A stretch of 64,000 nt of DNA, from positions 22,866 through 86,865 of IMG/VR virus record IMGVR_UViG_3300020420_001038, one strand, 5' to 3'. This DNA comes from a virus. Shown piece by piece: positions 29,142-56,584 of this stretch (position 1 is the stretch's first letter; every line of letters begins with the position of its first letter). Made by a program: the position numbers and the translations under genes. The notes under the pieces were generated by a model. The model worked only from the letters and a program-made list of their open reading frames with translations, made no database searches and was not told where the DNA came from.

Positions 29142-29159
29142 GCACTTCTCCCTCAAAGT

Positions 29160-29202
29160 GCGTTCCTTCGGTTTCCCTACTTCCGTCCTATTGGATGAAC
29201 GT
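29160..29202 (-). promoter_or_regulatory. glnA-type glutamine riboswitch (glutamine-I)
   Basis: Minus strand ACGUUCAUCCAAUAGGACGGAAGUAGGGAAACCGAAGGAACGC: P1 CGUUC/GAACG, P2 UCC/GGA, GGAAGUA and GAAG E-loop strands, P3 GG-GAAA-CC. Confidence 0.8.
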
Positions 29203-29207
29203 AAAAA

Positions 29208-40397: not shown

Positions 40398-40814
40398 TTA
40401 CTCAGATACGATATCTATGTTACCTTTACCTGACGCAATTGAACCTTGGATGTCAGTTCCTAATGAATAAGGTACTGATCCTGTGGCACCGCCTGCAGTC
40501 ACGTAGTGTACTGTGTTGTTGAAAAATTTCTCAACATAAGCAACAGTTGAATCGTCTAATGTAATTTGTACACAGAACTGGTTTGATGTGTTCGCAAGTG
40601 ATCCTGGTGCTACTGCTTTTAATTCGTAAACTGCTTCTGTAGAATCATCCAAGTGTATTTTGAATAACTTAGATCCTCTTTGTGAAACAATGTACGCAGT
40701 AGTTGAATCAACTTTTGCACCACCAGTTGGTCTGTAAGCCGTCACCGCAATTTTACCTGCTGTTGAGGCACCAAAGTCTGATACAAATCTATCTTTTCTT
40801 ATTGGTCTTCCCAT
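40398..40814 (-). CDS. hypothetical structural protein
   Basis: 138 aa; AGGAG SD; late promoter and structured leader upstream. Confidence 0.75.
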   Translation of the reverse strand: MGRPIRKDRFVSDFGASTAGKIAVTAYRPTGGAKVDSTTAYIVSQRGSKLFKIHLDDSTEAVYELKAVAPGSLANTSNQFCVQITLDDSTVAYVEKFFNNTVHYVTAGGATGSVPYSLGTDIQGSIASGKGNIDIVSE

Positions 40815-40830
40815 TTTTTTTCTCCTGTTT

Positions 40831-40902
40831 CAGAGCCTAATGTGAGTTCTACTCACTACGCGGTTTATTCCGCATAAGTCCGCACTTGGTTGTGCGGCTC
40901 TG
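40831..40902 (-). ncRNA. candidate structured leader RNA (four-way junction)
   Basis: CAGAGC/GCUCUG closes three hairpins (CGCAC/GUGCG, UAUGCGG/CCGCGUA, GUGAG/CUCAC), between ATAAATA and the SD. Confidence 0.55.
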
Positions 40903-50352: not shown

Positions 50353-50433
50353 ATGGTTTTATTTCGCCCCTTTTTATACGCATATAAATATTGACATACA
50401 TACGCAATTATCGTATATTTATAGATGCAAAAA

Positions 50434-51291
50434 ATGACAGAAAATACTAACCCTTTACAAAAGTATTATAGACAGCCACAGATCTATGTGAAACTGCCAT
50501 CGGGCGGTAAATGGTATGGCCCTGAGGTTTTCACCCCAACTGAAAATGGTGAGATACCAATCTTGCCAATGACAGCAAAAGACGAACTGGCTTTCAAAAC
50601 TCCAGATGCATTGATATCAGGACAAGCGACAGTGGATGTGATAAAATCTTGTGTACCAAATCTTAAAGATCCATGGCAAATGGTGAATTTTGACACTGAC
50701 ACTATATTATTAGCAATCAGGATAGCATCGTATGGTGAGACCATGAACATCGACTTCACTGTACCTGTTACTAATGAGCAGGATTCCACTACATTAAATT
50801 TGCCTGCCATGTTGGAAGATCTGGGCAGAGCAAAAATATCAGATTCTTGCAAAACAAAAGCAGGATTTGTTATTAAACTTGCACCTTTAAGATACAATCA
50901 ACTAACAAAAATAATCCTTGCACAGTATGAACAGCAAAGAATTTATGCATCGGCGGTGGCCTCAAACGTGAATGAAGTTACCAGAAGCAAAACTTTCTCC
51001 GAAAGTTTTAAAAAATTAAATGAACTAAATTTTGATATGCTTATCAACAGTGTGGCAAGTATTACCACTCCAGATAATGTCGAAGTCAATGACCAAAAAC
51101 AAATTGTGGAATTCTTAAGCAACGCACCTTCTGACGTGGTGGATGATATACAAACAGAATTGGCAAAAGTGAGAAGCCAGGCACAGACTCCTCCGTTGAA
51201 AATAAAGGCCACGGAAGAGCAGATCAAGAAAGGTGTTCCGGCAACATTTGAGGTACCCGTAACTTTCGACAACTCAAATTTTTTCGGGTAA
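50434..51291 (+). CDS. baseplate hub / tail assembly chaperone (gp26-like)
   Basis: YVKLPSGG, PMTAKDE, LLAIRIASYGE, C-terminal SNFFG; start at ATG 50434. Confidence 0.75.
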   Translation: MTENTNPLQKYYRQPQIYVKLPSGGKWYGPEVFTPTENGEIPILPMTAKDELAFKTPDALISGQATVDVIKSCVPNLKDPWQMVNFDTDTILLAIRIASYGETMNIDFTVPVTNEQDSTTLNLPAMLEDLGRAKISDSCKTKAGFVIKLAPLRYNQLTKIILAQYEQQRIYASAVASNVNEVTRSKTFSESFKKLNELNFDMLINSVASITTPDNVEVNDQKQIVEFLSNAPSDVVDDIQTELAKVRSQAQTPPLKIKATEEQIKKGVPATFEVPVTFDNSNFFG

Positions 51292-51567: not shown

Positions 51568-51894
51568 ATGTCCGAAAGAGATCTAATTAAAGAACTCAAA
51601 GCACAAATTGTTGACCTCACCGCAGATCGCGATGATGCTCTGGCTAAAGTCAAGAGCAAGGAGTCACGTATGAAGCAGGTGTTGATAAAATTAGAACATG
51701 CAACTTCAGATGTGCAGGCAACAGGTCACAAGATAGGCGATCAGAACAAGAAGATAGCAGAACTTGAGGCCAAACTCGCGACCAAAGAGGAGTTACTGGA
51801 AGAAGCGTTAACTAAGATTAAAGTATTCAAGCAAGGACATTTTGACCCAGATGACTCAACACACACCGACGCAAAAGATCAAGACCTGGATTAG
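51568..51894 (+). CDS. coiled-coil hypothetical protein
   Basis: Heptad-rich ORF (MSERDLIKELK...). Confidence 0.65.
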   Translation: MSERDLIKELKAQIVDLTADRDDALAKVKSKESRMKQVLIKLEHATSDVQATGHKIGDQNKKIAELEAKLATKEELLEEALTKIKVFKQGHFDPDDSTHTDAKDQDLD

Positions 51895-52351
51895 CGAATT
51901 CGTAACCAAACCGAATCCCATATTCGGCGACCTACCGCCATGCCCGTTTGCCCAAAAGGCCATGCTGGAGGACAAGGTGGAGTTCCTGGAACTGGACGGT
52001 GTTGCCGGATACGAAACACTGTACGGACACATATTCAATTTTGATTTCGAGGACAAGGACGTGTTGGTAATGATAGCACAGCCTGACCAATTCACTGGCC
52101 CAGAGACCGAGCAGTTGGCACGTGATCTCAACTCATACTTCATGTCCAAGGATGTGGTTGTGTTGGAGGACCATCCGGAGATAGATGAGTCGGTCAAACA
52201 TGTCAAACTCAACAATGGTGAATACGTATTGTTCCTGGCCCAGAGCCTCAGCAAGTTGAACCATTTCAGCAAACTGCTGGAATCCGGTCCTTACTATAAA
52301 AATTGGTCTAAAAATTATCTCGAAGCAGTGAAAGGTTTCCGAGAGAAGTAA
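51851..52351 (+). CDS. hypothetical protein (DUF1415-like)
   Basis: WISEFV...LPPCPFAQKA and EDHP motifs resemble the DUF1415 CPFA pattern. Confidence 0.6.
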   Translation: MTQHTPTQKIKTWISEFVTKPNPIFGDLPPCPFAQKAMLEDKVEFLELDGVAGYETLYGHIFNFDFEDKDVLVMIAQPDQFTGPETEQLARDLNSYFMSKDVVVLEDHPEIDESVKHVKLNNGEYVLFLAQSLSKLNHFSKLLESGPYYKNWSKNYLEAVKGFREK

Positions 52352-53081
52352 CCTGGTCGATCTCGCTGTCTCTCTTGCACAGCCTACGGTACAGCCGTTT
52401 GTTAGATGTCCACTCCATGCCGGTCCACCATTCGAATCCCCTCCATGATGCCTTGTATTCCGAGGACTTCTCGTATCCACTGCCCATGTAGTAGTATGGT
52501 ATGGATTGATCCGCGGCCCACATCATCTCGAGATCCATCGTGATCGCCGATATGGGCACTGTGTTGGCGTGTATGCAACTCTCCAGTCCCGACACTGTGT
52601 ATGCGTCCATGTCGTCTATGGTGGGTGCCATCATGTCCTCCTGCCACCAGTAACGTTTTTGCTTTGTGAATCCTATTATGTTGTCAGCGGATCCGGTGTA
52701 GAATATCATGAATTGGTCACGTTTGTGGTAATGTCCGAAAGGGTTGTAGTCCGCGCCAAATTTTTTCCGCTTCATGTACTGCTTGTATATTTCGGGCAGT
52801 CCCAACAGTTTAACCATCTCGGATGCGTCTATCACTTTCAGTTCCACACGTTGTCCCTGCCATTTGTGTTCACGGAATCTCGGTCGGAACCGATCCATGT
52901 GTATGCGTGTGCTACGTGATTGGTAAAAAACTTCCTTGCCGCCCACTGGCTCGTCCAGCGCCAGCCAACCATGTTCTATTGCTTCCGACTCTTCGCCCTC
53001 GTCAAAGATTGCCATGGGTTTGCATACCACTAAATCCTGCTGTTCCTGTTTGCCGAAAGTGTGATCCCAAATAAACTGCAT
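52308..53081 (-). CDS. putative aminoacyl-tRNA--protein transferase (ATE/Bpt-like)
   Basis: AIEHGW, STRI, and C-terminal YYYMGSGYEKSSEYK resemble the ATE/Bpt L..GW and YYYLGY....KM.YK motifs. Confidence 0.6.
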   Translation of the reverse strand: MQFIWDHTFGKQEQQDLVVCKPMAIFDEGEESEAIEHGWLALDEPVGGKEVFYQSRSTRIHMDRFRPRFREHKWQGQRVELKVIDASEMVKLLGLPEIYKQYMKRKKFGADYNPFGHYHKRDQFMIFYTGSADNIIGFTKQKRYWWQEDMMAPTIDDMDAYTVSGLESCIHANTVPISAITMDLEMMWAADQSIPYYYMGSGYEKSSEYKASWRGFEWWTGMEWTSNKRLYRRLCKRDSEIDQVTSLGNLSLLRDNF

Positions 53082-53099
53082 ACTGTACTTAATTCAATA

Positions 53100-53510
53100 C
53101 AAAGATGGTTTGCAACCATCTGAAACTTCGCTACGCTCGTTTCTTTTTTTAATTAACGCAGTTTAAGAAAACTTAACGCATTGTGCGTTCTCTGTGGTAG
53201 ATGAGCAGTCACTATTCTGCTATTACTAGCAGAACAGATCGTAAACTCTGTGGTGAGTTCACAGTCACTATACATCGCTACTCTCGTCGGGCGGTTGTGC
53301 TGTACCCGTTTGCTCATTCATTACAACGCGAGCCTACTAGATCCTTGTATAATAGTATCTAATAAACTTGAGGTTTATCTTTTTCTAAGAGCCTCATCAT
53401 TTTTGCTGTGTGCATCAAAGGATTCACCTGTCGCTTGTTAGCCGCATTTCCTTGCTCACTGGTTGCGATGCTATGTTTGCCTGGGGGAAATTGTGTGTGC
53501 CTATCGCATA
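53100..53510 (-). ncRNA. candidate large structured ncRNA (alternatively a replication origin)
   Basis: About 480 nt with no credible ORF, at least seven inverted repeats and two direct-repeat cassettes; TATAAACA late-like box at the minus-strand 5' end. Confidence 0.55.
53190..53271. repeat. two-copy direct repeat CTCTGTGGT-N7-CAGTCACTAT, 56 nt period
   Basis: 53190-53215 (core AGATGAG) and 53246-53271 (core GAGTTCA), with an 8-bp hairpin between them. Confidence 0.9.
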
Positions 53511-53562
53511 TGTTTATATGAGTTTTATTTTAAGGTCAATCTTTTTGGCTTTAAATATTGTA

Positions 53563-54009
53563 ATGCATTGGCAGTACCGAGAAAAAGACATCACAGAATT
53601 ACCAGATGAGGTTGTGGGATTTGTTTACCAAATAACAAATACAACCAACGGTAGGATGTACATAGGAAAAAAACTTGCTAGATTCAAAAGGTCAAGGAAG
53701 CCTTTGAAAGGCAGGGTCAACAAAAGAAGATACACGGTGGCCAGCGATTGGCAGGATTACTATGGATCAAGTGATGCCCTCAATGAGGACATACAAAAAC
53801 TTGGTAAAGACAAATTCAAAAGAGAAATATTATTCTACTGCAAATCCAAAGCGGAACTTTCATACGTTGAGGCCAGAGAACAGTTTGCACGAAAAGTTTT
53901 GGAAACAGACGATTACTACAACGGCCATATCAGGGTTCGTATACACGGGTCTGGGATAATGAGAGAAAAATCTACAAAAGGTATATTAAAAGAAAAAGCC
54001 TCCACTTAA
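53563..54009 (+). CDS. minimal GIY-YIG nuclease-fold protein
   Basis: GFVYQITNTTNGRMYIGKK, YYGSS, FKREIL, catalytic-type E (YVEAREQ), YYN. Start at ATG 53563, 5 nt after TAAATA. Confidence 0.85.
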   Translation: MHWQYREKDITELPDEVVGFVYQITNTTNGRMYIGKKLARFKRSRKPLKGRVNKRRYTVASDWQDYYGSSDALNEDIQKLGKDKFKREILFYCKSKAELSYVEAREQFARKVLETDDYYNGHIRVRIHGSGIMREKSTKGILKEKAST

Positions 54010-54028
54010 AATAAGCAGAGGCCTTTTT
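53993..54028. terminator. probable bidirectional terminator between convergent genes
   Basis: AAAAAGCCTC...GAGGCCTTTTT imperfect hairpin. Confidence 0.55.
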
Positions 54029-54055
54029 ATCGCGTTCGGATCCAATTAGCAATAA

Positions 54056-54247
54056 TTACGCCGCAGTTTTTGCCGCGTTTTTAGCCTCTTGAATTTCTTT
54101 TCTTCTTGCTTTGATCAATTTTGAAAGATTAGCAAGTGCTTTTCTGGCTCTTGTTGCAGAAGCCTTTACGCCTTTCTCTGTGAACTTTCCGTTCTCTTCA
54201 GAGTATGCTTGGATCTCACTCATGATCTGTTCATGTGTTTGTGACAT
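54056..54247 (-). CDS. histone H1-like (Hc1-like) small basic protein
   Basis: KFTEKGVKASATRARKAL..L.KL.K..RKE pattern. Confidence 0.75.
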   Translation of the reverse strand: MSQTHEQIMSEIQAYSEENGKFTEKGVKASATRARKALANLSKLIKARRKEIQEAKNAAKTAA

Positions 54248-54335
54248 ATTAATTGTCCTTCCTTTTTATTCGTACGATAATATTAATTAACATATGCTTA
54301 ATTAAAGCACGTAAGAACTGGTTCTGTCAAGTAAA

Positions 54336-54812
54336 TTAATATGGAATATATGATTCTTTTACCAAATCATATATTTGATTTTTGGTAAACTGCCAATCTT
54401 CATAGATATCAGCAAATTTTTTTGCAATTTTGTCGTAATCTTCTTTGGTTTCCATGTGCCCAGGTTCAAATATTTGGGCATTTTGGTTCTCCATGTTGTG
54501 TCTGTACACAATAAAATTTAAATTTAATTTTTCCAACCCGTAATTTATTGGGCCTGTTTTCTTCCAATTCAAGAACGTGCCTTGTTTGCTTGTGAATACA
54601 AATATTTTCTTTGCTTTGGAAAATAGCAATGAAAGATTTTCATTTATATTCCTATTTCCCGTGGCAGTATGAATCAATATTTCGTATTCTGGTAGGTTTC
54701 GGATGCAATTTCTATCTGTGATATCCAACATATCTTTGCCATAGTAATCACCATCTATAAATTCTTTTAGACTATTTGCAAGATTTCCATGTCCGCCAGT
54801 GACTAGGATCAT
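54336..54812 (-). CDS. short SDR/epimerase-like Rossmann protein
   Basis: ILVTGGHGNLA, LDITD, YxxxK (YGLEK); only 158 aa. Confidence 0.65.
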   Translation of the reverse strand: MILVTGGHGNLANSLKEFIDGDYYGKDMLDITDRNCIRNLPEYEILIHTATGNRNINENLSLLFSKAKKIFVFTSKQGTFLNWKKTGPINYGLEKLNLNFIVYRHNMENQNAQIFEPGHMETKEDYDKIAKKFADIYEDWQFTKNQIYDLVKESYIPY

Positions 54813-56584
54813 ACAATTATCTCTACATCGTTAGCATAATTGGTAAAGCCATTTTCTTTTGTAACTTTTAATACTGAATTTACTCTGCTGACAAGTTCGT
54901 CTTTGTGTGAAATCAAGAAAATATTTTTCCTTTGTGTTCTACTCATGTCTTTAAGAACCGCCATGGAACTTTCTACACCAGATAGATCCATACCTGCATC
55001 AACCAGTTCATCTATGAACAATAAGTTGATCTGTTGATAAAGGCTTTCCCATACATCTCTGAATGCCCAACTTAGACTCAATATCAGTCTATTACGTTCA
55101 CCTCTGCTTAAATTATCAAAATCCAGTTCTCTTCCAAGTTCCTCGATAGTTACTGTCAAGTCTGGTTGGAATGTAACCGTATGCGGTAGTTTAACTTTGC
55201 CCAAGAAGTGTGCAAGTCTTTGGTTCAAATATGTTAAGTTTTGTTCGATTATTCTTGTTCTTATAAATGAGTCTTTCGCTGTTAGTAGTTTGTACAAAAA
55301 CTCCTGGTGTCTATACAAATCTTCCATTTCATTTACACTTGTATAGTCTACTTTTTGTATGGCTTTTTGTGTTAGTTCTTCTATCTGTTCAGCATACGGA
55401 TCTTCTTTTTTCTCTGTTTGTTCCAGTTGTCTTTGTAAATCTTTAAGACTGCCTTTATGGTTGTATGCTTCGTCCATTGTGTCGTAATAGGTATCCGGAG
55501 TTTGTCCTAAATCTCCTATAACATCAAGATCTTGTTGTATTTTTGCAAGATCACTTTTTACTTTGTCACTAATTTCTCTGCTTTCATTTAAGGTTTGTGT
55601 AAGTTGTTCTGTGAGATGCTTATGCTTGTCGTCGTTTAAAGATTGTTCACATGTGGGGCATTTTGCATCTTTGGTGTATTCCAAGTCTGCTTCTGTTTTT
55701 GTTATTGTTTGTTCTGTTTTAGTTAAACTATCTTCGTGATATGCTTTTTCTTTATTTAGACTTAATTGTTTAAGATAGTTTTCATTGTGTTTTTGTAATT
55801 TTTTGTGTGCTTCTAGTTCTTCCTTTATGTTTACTTTTTCAAGTTCTGTGATTGCTTCGTTGAAATTTTTCACGTCTTTTTCTTGTTGCGTTTGCCATGC
55901 ACTAGATCTTATTTTCAAACTTTCAATTGATTCTTGTATTTTTTCATTAGCGGCCATTTTAGAATCTATTTTGTATTTTTCTTCAGTCAATTGTGTTTTG
56001 GTTGATTTCATCTTCTCTTTTAGCAGATCTGCTTTTTGAGATAATAAAGTTATGCCAAGTAATTGTTCAATTATTTCTCTTTGTTCGTTTGCTTTAGTAG
56101 ATAAAAACGGTTGTGTGTATGTGTTCAATGCAATTATATTTTTAAACATTGCCAACGTCATACCGATCAAGTTGTTAATTTCTACTTGCGTTTCCCTATT
56201 TTCACCTTGTGCTTCGTTGCTTTCTGTATTTTGTTCAATGTTGTTTGCATAGAATCTAAAAATACCAGGCTTTCTACCACGTTCAATTGTGTACTCTACA
56301 TTATTTTTTATAAATTTAATGCTTACCATCATGGCTTTTTCGTTGGTTTTGTTTACAAGATTATCTCTTCTGATATTTGTTAAAGCCTCACCAAAGAAGA
56401 CATATGATAGTGCATTTATAATTGTTGTCTTACCTGTACCGTTTCTTGCACCGGCATCATCGCCGCCCAGGTCCAAGTTTTCACCAATAACTAAAACTAA
56501 ATTTTTATTGGCAAAATTAATGCTTTGTGTAGCATTACCCACACTCATGAAATTTTTTACTGTAAGTTCTTTAATTGTTAACAT
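54809..56584 (-). CDS. recombination endonuclease ATPase subunit (gp46/SbcC/Rad50-like)
   Basis: KNFMSVGN, Walker A NGTGKTT, zinc hook CPTC, LSRGE signature, FIDE, ISHK. Confidence 0.95.
   Translation of the reverse strand: MLTIKELTVKNFMSVGNATQSINFANKNLVLVIGENLDLGGDDAGARNGTGKTTIINALSYVFFGEALTNIRRDNLVNKTNEKAMMVSIKFIKNNVEYTIERGRKPGIFRFYANNIEQNTESNEAQGENRETQVEINNLIGMTLAMFKNIIALNTYTQPFLSTKANEQREIIEQLLGITLLSQKADLLKEKMKSTKTQLTEEKYKIDSKMAANEKIQESIESLKIRSSAWQTQQEKDVKNFNEAITELEKVNIKEELEAHKKLQKHNENYLKQLSLNKEKAYHEDSLTKTEQTITKTEADLEYTKDAKCPTCEQSLNDDKHKHLTEQLTQTLNESREISDKVKSDLAKIQQDLDVIGDLGQTPDTYYDTMDEAYNHKGSLKDLQRQLEQTEKKEDPYAEQIEELTQKAIQKVDYTSVNEMEDLYRHQEFLYKLLTAKDSFIRTRIIEQNLTYLNQRLAHFLGKVKLPHTVTFQPDLTVTIEELGRELDFDNLSRGERNRLILSLSWAFRDVWESLYQQINLLFIDELVDAGMDLSGVESSMAVLKDMSRTQRKNIFLISHKDELVSRVNSVLKVTKENGFTNYANDVEIIV

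What the first reader, a model, noticed from the sequence alone, without database searches (positions are those of the whole stretch)
53100..53520. Candidate ~400 nt structured non-coding RNA in an otherwise gene-dense genome
Seen: the longest stretch here without a credible ORF, relatively GC-rich. Inverted repeats: AGATGGTT/AACCATCT (53103-53121), GAAAC/GTTTC, AACGCA/TGCGTT, TTCTGCTA/TAGCAGAA, CGGG/CCCG around CGGTTGTGCTGTA, TAGAT/ATCTA, TGAGG/CCTCA, TGCGAT/ATCGCA (53464-53508), plus long-range ATGAGCA(53201)/TGCTCAT(53311). A TATAAACA late-like box sits at about 53511-53518 on the minus strand. I could not match it by eye to tmRNA, RNase P, 6S or group I/II introns. Inference: a novel phage large ncRNA; the alternative is a structured replication origin or packaging site.
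Basis: partly seen in the sequence, partly recalled or inferred. Interest (0 to 1): 0.85.

Follow-up and report, generated by a model that had tools for sequence, protein, structure and literature searches.

The report
Twin-box structured RNA gene, marine phage
The gene-free gap holds a real gene for a roughly 400-base, knotted non-coding RNA that is in no RNA catalogue, is common in uncultured marine giant T4-like phages, and shows the same short word twice, as if it holds two copies of a still unknown partner.

Summary
The finding is real. Window 53103 to about 53505, minus strand, encodes a ~400-nt non-coding RNA. Relatives were found in 196 of 211 fetched IMG/VR loci. On 35 non-redundant sequences, 91 proposed pairs are 96.3% paired and 38 show compensatory changes; 0 of 500 shuffles reach this, and slid controls give 31-37%. 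One 7-bp pseudoknot is well supported. G-U against A-C cells (297 v 48) put the RNA on the minus strand, and variation has no codon periodicity. No Rfam 15 family matches, ARAGORN finds nothing, and GenBank phages give no match.

An ATE-like aminoacyl-tRNA-transferase gene usually follows (40 of 49 evaluable loci). In 7 of 49 none was found downstream, and a third clade lacks it. I therefore read the RNA as a stand-alone gene, not a leader.

Two single-stranded words (ACCACAG) are identical in 71 of 72 sequences across five word variants, with no partner inside the RNA. I infer that they bind two copies of an outside partner. Function is unknown.

This scan's earlier notes found the same family on other genomes.

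The parts
53534..53539 (-). -35-like hexamer TTGACC of the RNA's promoter
   Evidence: TTGAC[C/T/A] occurs in 30 of 35 aligned relatives at a fixed place. The simple sigma-70 scan did not call a promoter here, because the second hexamer lacks T at position 6.
53511..53518 (-). TATAAACA box, either a -10-like or a late-like promoter box. The transcript is inferred to start a few bases downstream, near 53505.
   Evidence: The box is TATAAAC in 21 of 35 relatives and TATATA in 14 of 35 at the same columns. nhmmer matches of relatives with other upstream DNA begin at query positions 52-60, about 53511-53503. The start site itself is inferred and not measured.
53472..53502 (-). 5' single-stranded part with two AGGCA(A/C)AC repeats (53502-53495 and 53482-53472)
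   Evidence: Both repeats are conserved in the alignment. A subgroup carries an extra 5' hairpin in which GAAGG/CCUUC becomes GUUGG/CCAAC in two rows, seen by eye.
53412..53471 (-). 5' domain of three stacked helices: H1 GCAUC/GAUGC, H2 AAGGA/UCCUU and H3 GCU/AGC
   Evidence: H2 is 96% paired with 2 compensatory pairs. H3 is 97% paired and all 3 pairs are compensatory. H1 is 97% paired and almost invariant.
53369..53396 (-). Hairpin H4 (UGAGG/CCUCA) with inner stem CUU/AAG and loop AGAAA
   Evidence: H4 is 100% paired with 1 compensatory pair (AU 20, GC 14). The inner stem shows UA 23 and GC 5.
53331..53368 (-). Long hairpin H5 (13 bp). Its loop AUUAUAC (53353-53347) forms the pseudoknot.
   Evidence: 98.5% paired; 11 of 13 pairs show compensatory change.
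53267..53273 (-). 3' strand of the pseudoknot (GUAUAGU), pairing with the H5 loop at 53353-53347
   Evidence: 7 pairs, 99.2% paired, 4 with compensatory change (for example UA 17 and CG 16). It was found independently as a top mutual-information pair with 100% standard pairs.
53320..53332 (-). Junction CUCGCGUUGUAAU; the stretch CGCGUUG is invariant
   Evidence: Invariant columns in 35 of 35 sequences. It could pair with ACGC at 53188-53185 or with ACAAC of the H7 loop. Neither pairing varies, so neither can be tested.
53280..53308 (-). Core hairpin H7 (CGGGU/GCCCG) with the invariant 11-nt loop ACAGCACAACC, stacked on the small tetraloop hairpin H8 (AC-GAGA-GU)
   Evidence: H7 is 100% paired; its closing pair is CG in 25 and UA in 10. 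Both H8 pairs are compensatory, and its loops read GAGA, GAAA, UACG or CAAG. The 19-mer around the H7 loop occurs exactly in at least 120 IMG/VR stretches.
53243..53268 (-). Twin box A: GUGACUG, then hairpin GAACUC/GAGUUU carrying the word ACCACA(G) (53254-53248) in its loop
   Evidence: Folding each sequence on its own gives this hairpin in most of the 50 variants. In the alignment it is 89% paired with 2 compensatory pairs.
53213..53236 (-). Central hairpin H10 (10 bp) with a GNRA loop (GUAA)
   Evidence: 99.7% paired with 4 compensatory pairs; loops read GUAA, GAAA, GCAA or GAGA.
53192..53212 (-). Twin box B: GUGACUG, CUCAUCU and the word ACCACAG (53198-53192)
   Evidence: The first 5 nt of words A and B are identical in 71 of 72 unique sequences, across five word variants (ACCAC, GCCAC, AGUAC, AGCAC, ACUAC). 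No column of the RNA stays complementary to word position 2.
53144..53191 (-). Variable linker holding hairpin ACGCA/UGCGU (53188-53176) and an A-run (53150-53144)
   Evidence: Length and sequence vary between relatives. The hairpin is 94% paired with no covariation.
53122..53143 (-). Hairpin H13 GAAAC/GUUUC with the conserved loop GAGCGUAGCGAA
   Evidence: 99% paired with 3 compensatory pairs. The same loop sits on a changed stem (GUUC/GAAC) in the distant clade.
53103..53121 (-). Last hairpin H14 (AGAUGGUU/AACCAUCU); the conserved RNA ends here
   Evidence: 94% paired with 2 compensatory pairs. It is called terminator-like in the window, and 18 of 35 relatives have 4 or more T in the next 8 nt. 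In five loci without a downstream gene, convergent genes begin right after it.
52308..53081 (-). Usual downstream neighbour: a 257-aa ATE-like aminoacyl-tRNA-transferase-fold gene. It is not part of the RNA.
   Evidence: Pfam ATE_C matches 2 of 8 relatives (best E 1.9e-5) but not the window's own protein. The AlphaFold model has pLDDT 79.9. Foldseek's top hits are human ATE1 8tzv (E 6e-6), then MprF C-domains, yeast ATE1, FemX and L/F-transferase.

Best explanation
Window 53103 to about 53505, minus strand, is the gene of a stand-alone non-coding RNA of about 400 nt. It folds into a compact, multi-domain, pseudoknotted structure. It belongs to a family that is widespread in uncultured marine giant T4-like myophages; earlier notes of this scan call it the 'twin-box structured RNA'.

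Shown:
- The family exists.
- Most of the secondary structure and one pseudoknot are supported by covariation.
- The coding strand is the minus strand.
- The region is not protein-coding.
- No Rfam 15 model and no GenBank phage record in the collection searched matches it.
- It occurs both with and without the ATE-like gene downstream.

Inferred:
- It is transcribed from its own promoter (TTGACC 53539-53534, TATAAACA 53518-53511).
- It ends at or just after hairpin 53121-53103, with read-through into whatever gene follows.
- It acts in trans. The fold holds out two identical single-stranded words (ACCACAG at 53254-53248 and 53198-53192). These change in parallel between phages and have no partner inside the RNA. 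I infer that they bind two copies of one outside partner, either an RNA carrying the complementary word or a two-fold symmetric protein. The partner co-evolves with the phage.

My odds:
- Real structured RNA gene on the minus strand: about 0.93.
- Stand-alone, not a leader: about 0.7.
- Twin words bind an external partner in two copies: about 0.4.
For: Family and conservation:
- nhmmer finds the element in 78 of 91 loci fetched through the ATE-like protein.
- A profile finds it in 196 of 211 viral loci.
- An invariant 19-mer occurs in at least 120 IMG/VR stretches.
- In the 8 of 12 loci compared where both align over most of their length, the RNA gene is 80-89% identical to the window while the neighbouring ATE-like gene is 67-75%.
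- In a distant clade the upstream RNA region is 87% identical where the proteins are about 50% identical.

Structure (35 sequences):
- 91 pairs are 96.3% paired.
- 38 pairs and 258 cells show change on both sides.
- 0 of 500 shuffles reach any of the five measures.
- Slid controls give 31-37% paired and 7-12 such pairs.
- The pseudoknot is 99.2% paired with 4 compensatory pairs.

Strand and coding:
- G-U 297 cells against A-C 48, that is 96.3% paired on this strand against 88.5% on the other.
- Column variation by position mod 3 is flat (0.47, 0.52, 0.50).
- The longest ORFs of the relatives differ in strand, frame and length (19-107 aa).

Stand-alone status:
- Of 49 evaluable, de-duplicated loci found through the RNA's own 19-mer, 40 have the ATE-like gene adjacent, 2 have it further on, and in 7 none was found downstream.
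- In 5 of those 7, convergent hub-side genes begin right after the last hairpin. One has a deletion scar of the ATE-like start. One has too little DNA downstream to tell.
- In 8 of 137 hits other genes sit between the RNA and the ATE-like gene.
- A third, diverged clade (L110, L113, L138; 27-35 bits with my model) has the RNA beside the gp26-like hub genes with no ATE-like gene.

Twin words:
- Identical in 71 of 72 unique sequences, with five variants.
- Their columns are among the top mutual-information pairs, with non-complementary identical letters (CC 62, GG 10).
- No column of the RNA keeps standard pairing with word position 2.

Transcription:
- Short contigs of 4 of 4 marine RNA libraries laid (4 studies) lie on 53043-53483. 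One 202-nt contig has no differences.
Against: - No measured 5' or 3' end and no strand-specific reads. The RNA-library data are contigs at depth 2-5, and DNA carry-over cannot be excluded.
- The promoter is not called by the simple sigma-70 scan, and its type (early or late) is unresolved.
- Only 18 of 35 relatives have a T-rich tail after the last hairpin. A separate RNA 3' end is therefore not shown, and processing or read-through is possible.
- The ATE-like gene follows in about four of five loci and also in the distant clade. A functional tie to it is not excluded.
- Parallel change of the two words could also come from gene conversion between the two boxes or from shared ancestry. Only five word variants are seen, so independent events are few.
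- No external partner was found. The complement CTGTGGT is not clearly enriched in the window: 14 sites, 2 of them the gene itself, against 7.7 +/- 2.5 expected.
- Several helices (H1, H6, H12, the box-A outer stem) never vary and so are untested.
Confidence: 0.6

Rival explanations
1. It is a long cis-acting leader (riboswitch-like or T-box-like) that controls the ATE-like aminoacyl-tRNA-transferase gene downstream, for example by sensing tRNA or a metabolite and gating read-through or translation.
For: - The RNA lies directly upstream, on the same strand, of the ATE-like gene in 53 of 61 evaluable ATE-derived loci and 40 of 49 RNA-derived loci.
- The linkage also holds in a distant clade whose protein is only 29-33% identical.
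- No Shine-Dalgarno-like sequence precedes the ATG at 53081, by eye.
- 17 of 35 relatives have no T-rich tail after the last hairpin, so transcription probably runs on.
- When another gene is inserted, it starts at the same place after the conserved UUAAGUA.
- ACGC (53188-53185) has alternative partners, which could make a switch.
Against: - In 7 of 49 evaluable loci no ATE-like gene was found downstream of the RNA. In 5 of these no same-strand gene follows it at all, yet the RNA is intact there: 133 and 152 bits for L124 and L191.
- A third clade has it beside the hub genes with no gene behind it.
- In 8 of 137 hits unrelated genes follow it.
- One ATE-like gene (L086) has no such RNA upstream.
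- At about 400 nt, with a 19-nt invariant core, it is larger than known riboswitch aptamers (recalled, not tested).
Confidence: 0.15
2. It is the RNA partner of the ATE-like transferase, acting as a scaffold, decoy or tRNA-acceptor mimic. The two ACCA-containing words would dock into the CCA-binding sites of the enzyme.
For: - The neighbour has the fold of enzymes that bind the acceptor end of aminoacyl-tRNA: ATE1, MprF C-domain, FemX and L/F-transferase are the top Foldseek hits.
- The commonest word contains ACCA, like a tRNA 3' end.
- RNA and gene are linked in two clades.
- Large RNAs next to a partner protein gene are a known pattern, for example OLE with OapA (recalled).
Against: - The CCA is not kept. 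In 11 of 72 unique sequences the words read AGUAC, AGCAC or ACUAC.
- The RNA persists without the gene in 7 of 49 loci and in clade 3.
- ARAGORN finds no tRNA-like or tmRNA-like element.
I did not test that count.
Confidence: 0.12
3. It is a DNA-level element, a structured replication origin or a packaging site, and not an RNA.
For: It is a long gene-free stretch with many inverted repeats and two direct repeats. It sits between divergent transcription units.
Against: - Pairing is strand-asymmetric: G-U 297 cells against A-C 48.
- Hairpins are capped by GNRA and UNCG loops.
- A loop-to-strand pseudoknot covaries.
- Promoter-like boxes are conserved just upstream.
- RNA-library contigs cover it.
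- GC skew shows no switch particular to this spot.
Confidence: 0.03
4. It is a very diverged member of a known large RNA family (RNase P RNA, tmRNA, group I intron, GOLLD, ROOL) that the searches missed.
For: It resembles them only in size, pseudoknot and GNRA loops. A GIY-YIG homing-endonuclease gene lies next to it, as with some phage introns.
Against: - cmscan at gathering score on the whole window gives no hit here.
- At E up to 10 on 52900-53800 only two chance-level hits appear: RAGATH-7 at 17.9 bits against a cut-off of 111.8, lying in the GIY-YIG coding region, and sR5 at 14.1 against 40.
- At E up to 5 on 10 diverse relatives only one sub-threshold hit appears, in one locus.
- ARAGORN finds no tRNA or tmRNA in 64 kb.
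- There are no flanking exons. The upstream gene is on the other strand.
Confidence: 0.03

Closest known systems
'Twin-box structured RNA of marine phages' in earlier notes of this scan (unpublished AI notes, e.g. e1-5753557, e1-5753569, e1-5374581)
   Same: The earlier cases share 11-33 of 64 short words with the window's core. They describe the same setting between a GIY-YIG gene and an ATE-like gene, the same size (400-440 nt), a pseudoknot, no catalogue match, and two words that change together. I reproduced all of this here independently.
   Different: This is another genome. Some notes speak of two knots; I could support only one by covariation. One note names Polynucleobacter-1 (RF01718) as the closest family, and no such hit appeared here.
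ROOL and GOLLD RNAs (large 'ornate' RNAs; Kretsch et al., Nature 2025, PMC12286853: search listing and start of abstract seen; the Rfam accessions RF03087 and RF01998 are as given in the earlier notes)
   Same: All are large, multi-domain, highly structured non-coding RNAs of unknown function. They are often carried by phages or prophages (recalled). Like them, this RNA has GNRA loops and long-range contacts and stands as a gene of its own.
   Different: No covariance-model match. It is smaller, about 400 nt against roughly 580 and 800 (recalled). There is no tRNA gene in the 64-kb window, whereas GOLLD and ROOL often sit by tRNAs (recalled). It occurs in marine T4-like giant phages. The twin words have no counterpart that I know of. 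Homo-oligomeric cages are not testable here.
Structured leaders that sense tRNA or metabolites (T-box, riboswitches)
   Same: It usually lies directly upstream of a gene whose product has the fold of tRNA-using enzymes, and it contains a pseudoknot.
   Different: In 7 of 49 loci no ATE-like gene was found downstream, and in 5 of these no same-strand gene follows at all; a whole clade also lacks the gene. No T-box or riboswitch model matches.
Candidate structured RNAs of viruses from IMG/VR (Fremin, Bhatt and Kyrpides 2023, PMC10690425: outline and first part of Results read)
   Same: The same data source (IMG/VR intergenic regions) and the same kind of evidence (covariation). Single hairpins of this RNA may be among their 8,495 DNA-virus candidates.
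   Different: Their candidates are 29-151 nt long. A ~400-nt RNA is not described in the parts I read.

Membership tests
Any Rfam 15 family (4227 models) | Match to the family's covariance model at its gathering score | tested here: not met
   No hit in 53082-53562 at gathering score. At E up to 10 only two chance-level hits, far below their cut-offs. Across 10 diverse relatives at E up to 5 there was one sub-threshold hit in one locus.
GOLLD / ROOL ornate RNAs | Model match; size about 580-800 nt; frequent neighbourhood of tRNA genes | tested here: not met
   No model match. Length is about 400 nt. ARAGORN finds 0 tRNA genes in the 64-kb window. The size and tRNA neighbourhood of the families are recalled.
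GOLLD / ROOL ornate RNAs | Homo-oligomeric RNA-only assembly | not testable with these tools
   Needs cryo-EM or native gels. The feature is known to me only from the abstract in the listing.
tmRNA / tRNA-like RNAs | tRNA-like domain and an invariant 3' CCA | tested here: not met
   ARAGORN finds none. The CCA inside the twin words is replaced in 11 of 72 unique sequences.
Group I / group II introns | Model match and flanking exons of one gene | tested here: not met
   No Rfam hit. The upstream gene is on the opposite strand, and the downstream ORF starts with its own ATG.
Cis-regulatory leader (riboswitch or T-box type) | Always in the 5' untranslated region of the regulated gene | tested here: not met
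   In 7 of 49 evaluable loci no ATE-like gene was found downstream, and in 5 of these convergent genes start right after the last hairpin. Clade 3 likewise lacks the gene.
Cis-regulatory leader (riboswitch or T-box type) | Expression platform (terminator or start-site sequestration with alternative pairing) | tested here: inconclusive
   The last hairpin is terminator-like in the window, but only 18 of 35 relatives have a T-rich tail. The alternative partners of ACGC do not vary.
'Twin-box structured RNA' (this scan's earlier notes) | RNA of about 400-440 nt, covarying helices with a pseudoknot, and two identical words that change in parallel; found in aquatic giant T4-like phages | tested here: met
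   structure and pseudoknot; words identical in 71 of 72; gp46 nearest to jumbo phage PA5oct at 49%; shared short words with the earlier cases.
ATE/Bpt aminoacyl-tRNA-protein transferases (for the neighbouring 257-aa protein) | Match to Pfam ATE_N/ATE_C at the curated cut-off | tested here: not met
   The window's protein matches 0 families even at E up to 10. ATE_C matches 2 of 8 relatives (best E 1.9e-5). ATE_N was never seen.
ATE/Bpt aminoacyl-tRNA-protein transferases (for the neighbouring 257-aa protein) | Fold of the aminoacyl-tRNA-dependent transferase (GNAT-type) superfamily | tested here: met
   Model pLDDT 79.9. Foldseek: ATE1 8tzv at E 6e-6 and TM 0.51, then MprF C-domains, FemX and L/F-transferase.

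The most novel reading that the evidence does not exclude
The RNA is a bivalent adaptor of a kind not yet described. A rigid, knotted scaffold presents two identical, evolvable 5-7-nt words that base-pair with two copies of an outside RNA (of phage or host) carrying the complementary word. The phage could then clamp, bridge or sequester that RNA, and the word co-evolves with its target much as a guide does.
Probability: 0.25. Interest if true: 0.9.

Novelty: new variant of a known kind. Interest (0 to 1): 0.78.

Why it matters
Large, intricately folded non-coding RNAs are rare, and the few classes known (RNase P, tmRNA, OLE, GOLLD, ROOL, the guide RNAs of IscB and IS110) have each opened new biology.

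This family is abundant in uncultured ocean phages: at least 120 IMG/VR stretches carry its invariant core. It is conserved better than the protein genes beside it. It is present in seawater RNA libraries. It matches no Rfam 15 model and no record of the GenBank phage collection searched.

Parallel change of the two words is a pattern unlike ordinary base-pair covariation. It gives a direct handle for finding the partner.

The RNA is small enough for in-vitro transcription, chemical probing and cryo-EM. Its structure is therefore testable even though no host is in culture.

Tried and rejected
1. GenBank phage records. blastn of 53000-53650 (E 1e-5) and of the 150-nt core (E up to 10), and tblastn of the ATE-like protein, all gave no match. 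No cultured phage in that collection carries the locus.

2. Genome-contig scan with a 15-nt degenerate core pattern. At this pattern length in 596 billion bases these are chance matches. I did not follow them, and the scan says nothing about hosts.

3. Both are weak, as detailed in the observation check. An alternative partner for UGCUCA in the 5' domain (CAGUGAGCA) was checked by eye on the alignment and is not compensated either.

4. A second pseudoknot, GUUGU (53327-53323) with ACAAC of the core loop. It is 100% paired but never varies, so it remains untested.

5. tRNA-mimic reading of ACCA in the words. Rejected because CCA is not kept.

6. Search for a partner of the words. No cis column was found. 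The complement CTGTGGT occurs at 14 sites in the window against 7.7 +/- 2.5 expected, and 2 of the 14 are the gene itself. A script looking for complements of other conserved segments found only the gene's own opposite strand.

7. Model R1 on the distant clade. L005 scores only 9.9 bits (E 0.01 on 711 nt, filters off). Homology of that clade's RNA rests on shared motifs seen by eye and is not proven. L067 and L086 gave no hit. L067's flank is filled by inserted genes.

8. RNA-library contigs. They show presence only, not strand, ends or level. Parts without cover mean nothing. Shares of words in the run search were small, 0.05-0.16.

9. PDB sequence searches with the ATE-like protein and with its profile gave nothing meaningful.

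10. Literature. Searches found no paper describing this RNA. Supplements of PMC10690425 are closed, so overlap with its candidate list is unknown. I did not run complex prediction, the metagenome-contig scan, the search of protein representatives or the protein-atlas search.
Full report
CONTEXT. The window is bases 22866-86865 of an 86,865-base IMG/VR virus record that CheckV rates about 24% complete. The genes around the finding are those of a T4-like myophage:
- a gp26-type baseplate hub protein (50425-51291);
- a Rad50/gp46-like nuclease subunit (54809-56584);
- an Hc1-like basic protein (54056-54247);
- a SegE-type GIY-YIG endonuclease (53563-54009; Pfam PF19835, E 1.5e-36).

The nearest cultured relatives by gp46 are Pseudomonas jumbo phages of the PA5oct type, at 49% identity. 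The finding lies in the 481-nt gap between the start of a minus-strand 257-aa ORF (52308-53081) and the GIY-YIG start.

OBSERVATION. On its own the sequence folds only a little better than shuffles: z = -2.88 on the minus strand and -1.74 on the plus strand. The gap is one of the three longest ORF-poor stretches of the window, not clearly the longest. It is richer in G+C than the DNA to its right, but poorer than the ATE-like gene to its left.

RELATIVES. The 257-aa protein has over 400 relatives in public metagenomes, all unnamed. Loci fetched through it from IMG/VR carry the gap sequence as well:
- Three close loci are 78-82% identical over the whole gap.
- nhmmer finds it in 78 of 91 loci.
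- A profile finds it in 196 of 211 viral loci.

In the 8 of 12 loci compared where both align over most of their length, the RNA gene is 80-89% identical to the window. The protein gene beside it is 67-75%.

STRUCTURE. RNAalifold on 35 sequences under 93% identical predicted 72 pairs, 32 of them with compensatory changes. I refined this by three routes: mutual information on 72 unique sequences, folding each sequence on its own, and reading the alignments.

The resulting 91 pairs in 17 helices are 96.3% paired. Of these, 38 pairs and 258 cells show change on both sides, and none of 500 column shuffles reaches any of the five measures. Sliding the 3' partners by 1-3 columns drops pairing to 31-37% and gives 7-12 such pairs.

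The best supported elements, in window coordinates, are:
- a three-tier 5' domain (53471-53412);
- hairpin 53396-53369;
- a 13-bp hairpin (53368-53331) in which 11 pairs covary;
- a 7-bp pseudoknot between that hairpin's loop (53353-53347) and 53273-53267, which is 99.2% paired with 4 covarying pairs;
- the core hairpin 53308-53288 with an invariant 11-nt loop;
- a 2-bp stem capped by GNRA or UNCG loops;
- a 10-bp GNRA-capped hairpin (53236-53213);
- two 3' hairpins (53143-53122 and 53121-53103).

Helices that never vary (H1, GCGU/ACGC, ACGCA/UGCGU, a possible second knot GUUGU/ACAAC) stay untested.

RNA, NOT PROTEIN OR DNA; WHICH STRAND. Column variation has no period of three: 0.47, 0.52 and 0.50, against 1.11, 0.33 and 0.73 in the first codons of the ORF. 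The longest ORFs of the 35 relatives differ in strand, frame and length. In the paired cells G-U occurs 297 times and A-C 48 times, so the minus strand pairs at 96.3% and the plus strand would pair at 88.5%.

Just upstream on the minus strand, TTGAC[C/T/A] is kept in 30 of 35 sequences. A box TATAAAC (21 of 35) or TATATA (14 of 35) follows at a fixed distance. The promoter class is therefore open.

The last hairpin is terminator-like in the window, but only 18 of 35 relatives have a T-rich tail.

Eighteen runs on record as RNA, mostly marine or seawater by label, hold small shares of the stretch's words. I laid four, from four studies, and all four have short contigs on 53043-53483. One 202-nt contig has no differences. 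Some contigs also lie on the 5' half of the ATE-like gene and one lies in the GIY-YIG gene. Contigs show no strand, ends or level, and DNA carry-over is possible.

A STAND-ALONE GENE. I counted context on two sets that are unbiased in opposite directions, each de-duplicated.
- Loci found through the ATE-like protein (61 evaluable): the RNA is adjacent in 53, further upstream in 6, and absent from the flank in 2.
  - L067's flank is filled by inserted genes.
  - L086 has a divergent gene 30 nt upstream.
- Loci found through the RNA's own 19-mer (49 evaluable): the ATE-like gene is adjacent in 40, further on in 2, and not found in 7.
  - In five of these seven (L124, L141, L183, L193, L209) the convergent small coiled-coil gene and the gp26-like hub gene begin right after the last hairpin.
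  - L191 keeps about ten codons of the ATE-like start followed by a stop.
  - L207 has other genes and too little room to tell.

The RNA is intact in such loci: 133 and 152 bits for L124 and L191 with my core model R1, against 170 for the window. Where other genes are inserted (8 of 137 hits in the redundant count), they start where the ATE-like ORF otherwise starts.

A third, diverged group (L110, L113, L138; 27-35 bits) has the same invariant core hairpin and central hairpin. It lies beside gp26-like hub genes and has no ATE-like gene.

A further distant group (L005 and L008 types; protein 29-33% identical to the window's) has an upstream non-coding stretch with many shared motifs and the same two 3' hairpins on changed stems. 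This stretch is 87% identical between two phages whose proteins are about 50% identical. My model reaches it only at 9.9 bits, so its homology is probable but not proven.

The constant neighbour across groups is the baseplate-hub module, not the ATE-like gene.

TWIN WORDS. Two boxes share the constant GUGACUG and a word ACCACAG, at 53254-53248 and 53198-53192. The first word sits in a hairpin loop and the second in a single-stranded stretch. The first five letters of the two words are identical in 71 of 72 unique sequences, although five variants exist: ACCAC, GCCAC, AGUAC, AGCAC and ACUAC. Their columns are among the strongest mutual-information pairs, but with identical letters, not complementary ones. 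No column of the RNA stays complementary to the second word position.

This fits two copies of one outside partner. Few independent changes are documented, however, and gene conversion between the boxes is an alternative. I found no partner.

KNOWN FAMILIES. The searches against known families were negative:
- Rfam 15 gives two true hits elsewhere in the window, freshwater-2 at 40812-40897 and a glutamine riboswitch at 29157-29203, and none here.
- Permissive searches of the region and of ten diverse relatives give only chance-level hits.
- ARAGORN finds no tRNA or tmRNA.
- GenBank phages give no nucleotide or protein match.
- Literature searches found no description of this RNA.

THE NEIGHBOUR. 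The 257-aa protein has no Pfam or PHROG match itself. ATE_C matches 2 of 8 relatives. Its model (pLDDT 79.9) is closest to human and yeast ATE1, the MprF C-domain, FemX and L/F-transferase, all of which are aminoacyl-tRNA-dependent transferases. I weighed a functional tie between RNA and enzyme and placed it among the rivals. The reasons are that the RNA outlives the gene in several lineages and that the CCA in the words is not conserved.

MECHANISM. These points are shown:
- It is a conserved, knotted RNA fold.
- It lies on the minus strand.
- It is independent of the downstream gene.

These points are inferred:
- It has its own promoter and an end near the last hairpin.
- It acts in trans.
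- Its two identical words hold two copies of an outside partner.

What the partner is, and what the phage gains, remain unknown.

EARLIER NOTES OF THIS SCAN. After my own analysis I looked up earlier notes. The same family had been noted and followed up on at least seven other genomes as the 'twin-box structured RNA', with the same main conclusions. I treat these as leads only.

Noticed in passing
window 52308-53081 (-): A 257-aa protein with the fold of aminoacyl-tRNA-dependent transferases: ATE1, MprF C-domain, FemX and L/F-transferase are the top fold matches. It has no Pfam match of its own and over 400 unnamed relatives in metagenomes. Its G+C content (0.45-0.53) is well above that of the phage DNA further right (0.29-0.41 at 53500-56000).
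   Followed up: partly
window 51842-52351 (+): A 169-aa ORF (weak DUF6875 match, phrog_28122) converges on the ATE-like gene and overlaps its 3' end by 44 nt. In the five loci where convergent hub-side genes follow the RNA directly, neither this ORF nor the ATE-like gene is in the downstream ORF lists.
   Followed up: no
window 53563-54009 (+): A short (148-aa) SegE-type GIY-YIG endonuclease gene diverges from the RNA gene, with a TAAATA box (53551-53556) 7 nt before its ATG. It is present beside the RNA in many relatives but not all; other genes take its place in L124, L191 and L207. A homing endonuclease parked next to a very conserved RNA gene recalls SegB in the T4 tRNA cluster (recalled).
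   Followed up: partly
L191, about 25-65 nt after the last hairpin of the RNA: A deletion scar. The first ten or so codons of the ATE-like ORF (MELMFDH...) run into a stop and are followed by a terminator-like hairpin, while the RNA upstream is intact.
   Followed up: partly
L005 3515-3985 and L008 3545-3985: In a distant clade the non-coding stretch upstream of the ATE-like gene is 87% identical between two phages whose ATE-like proteins are only about 50% identical. One run of some 120 nt is identical.
   Followed up: partly
L110, L113, L138: A diverged form of the RNA. It has the same invariant core hairpin and central hairpin but a different remainder. It lies beside gp26-like hub genes with no ATE-like gene, and a TATAAAT box stands just before an AGGCAAAAC start.
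   Followed up: partly
window 40812-40897 (-) and 29157-29203 (-): True Rfam hits elsewhere in the window: freshwater-2 RNA (75.1 bits) and a glutamine riboswitch aptamer (55 bits).
   Followed up: no
window 53541-53737 (+): A weak RAGATH-7 hit (17.9 bits against a cut-off of 111.8) inside the GIY-YIG coding region. I take it for chance.
   Followed up: no
window 54056-54247 (-): A 63-aa Hc1-like (histone H1-like) basic protein, Pfam PF07432 at E 1.2e-12. It also appears beside the GIY-YIG gene in L131.
   Followed up: no
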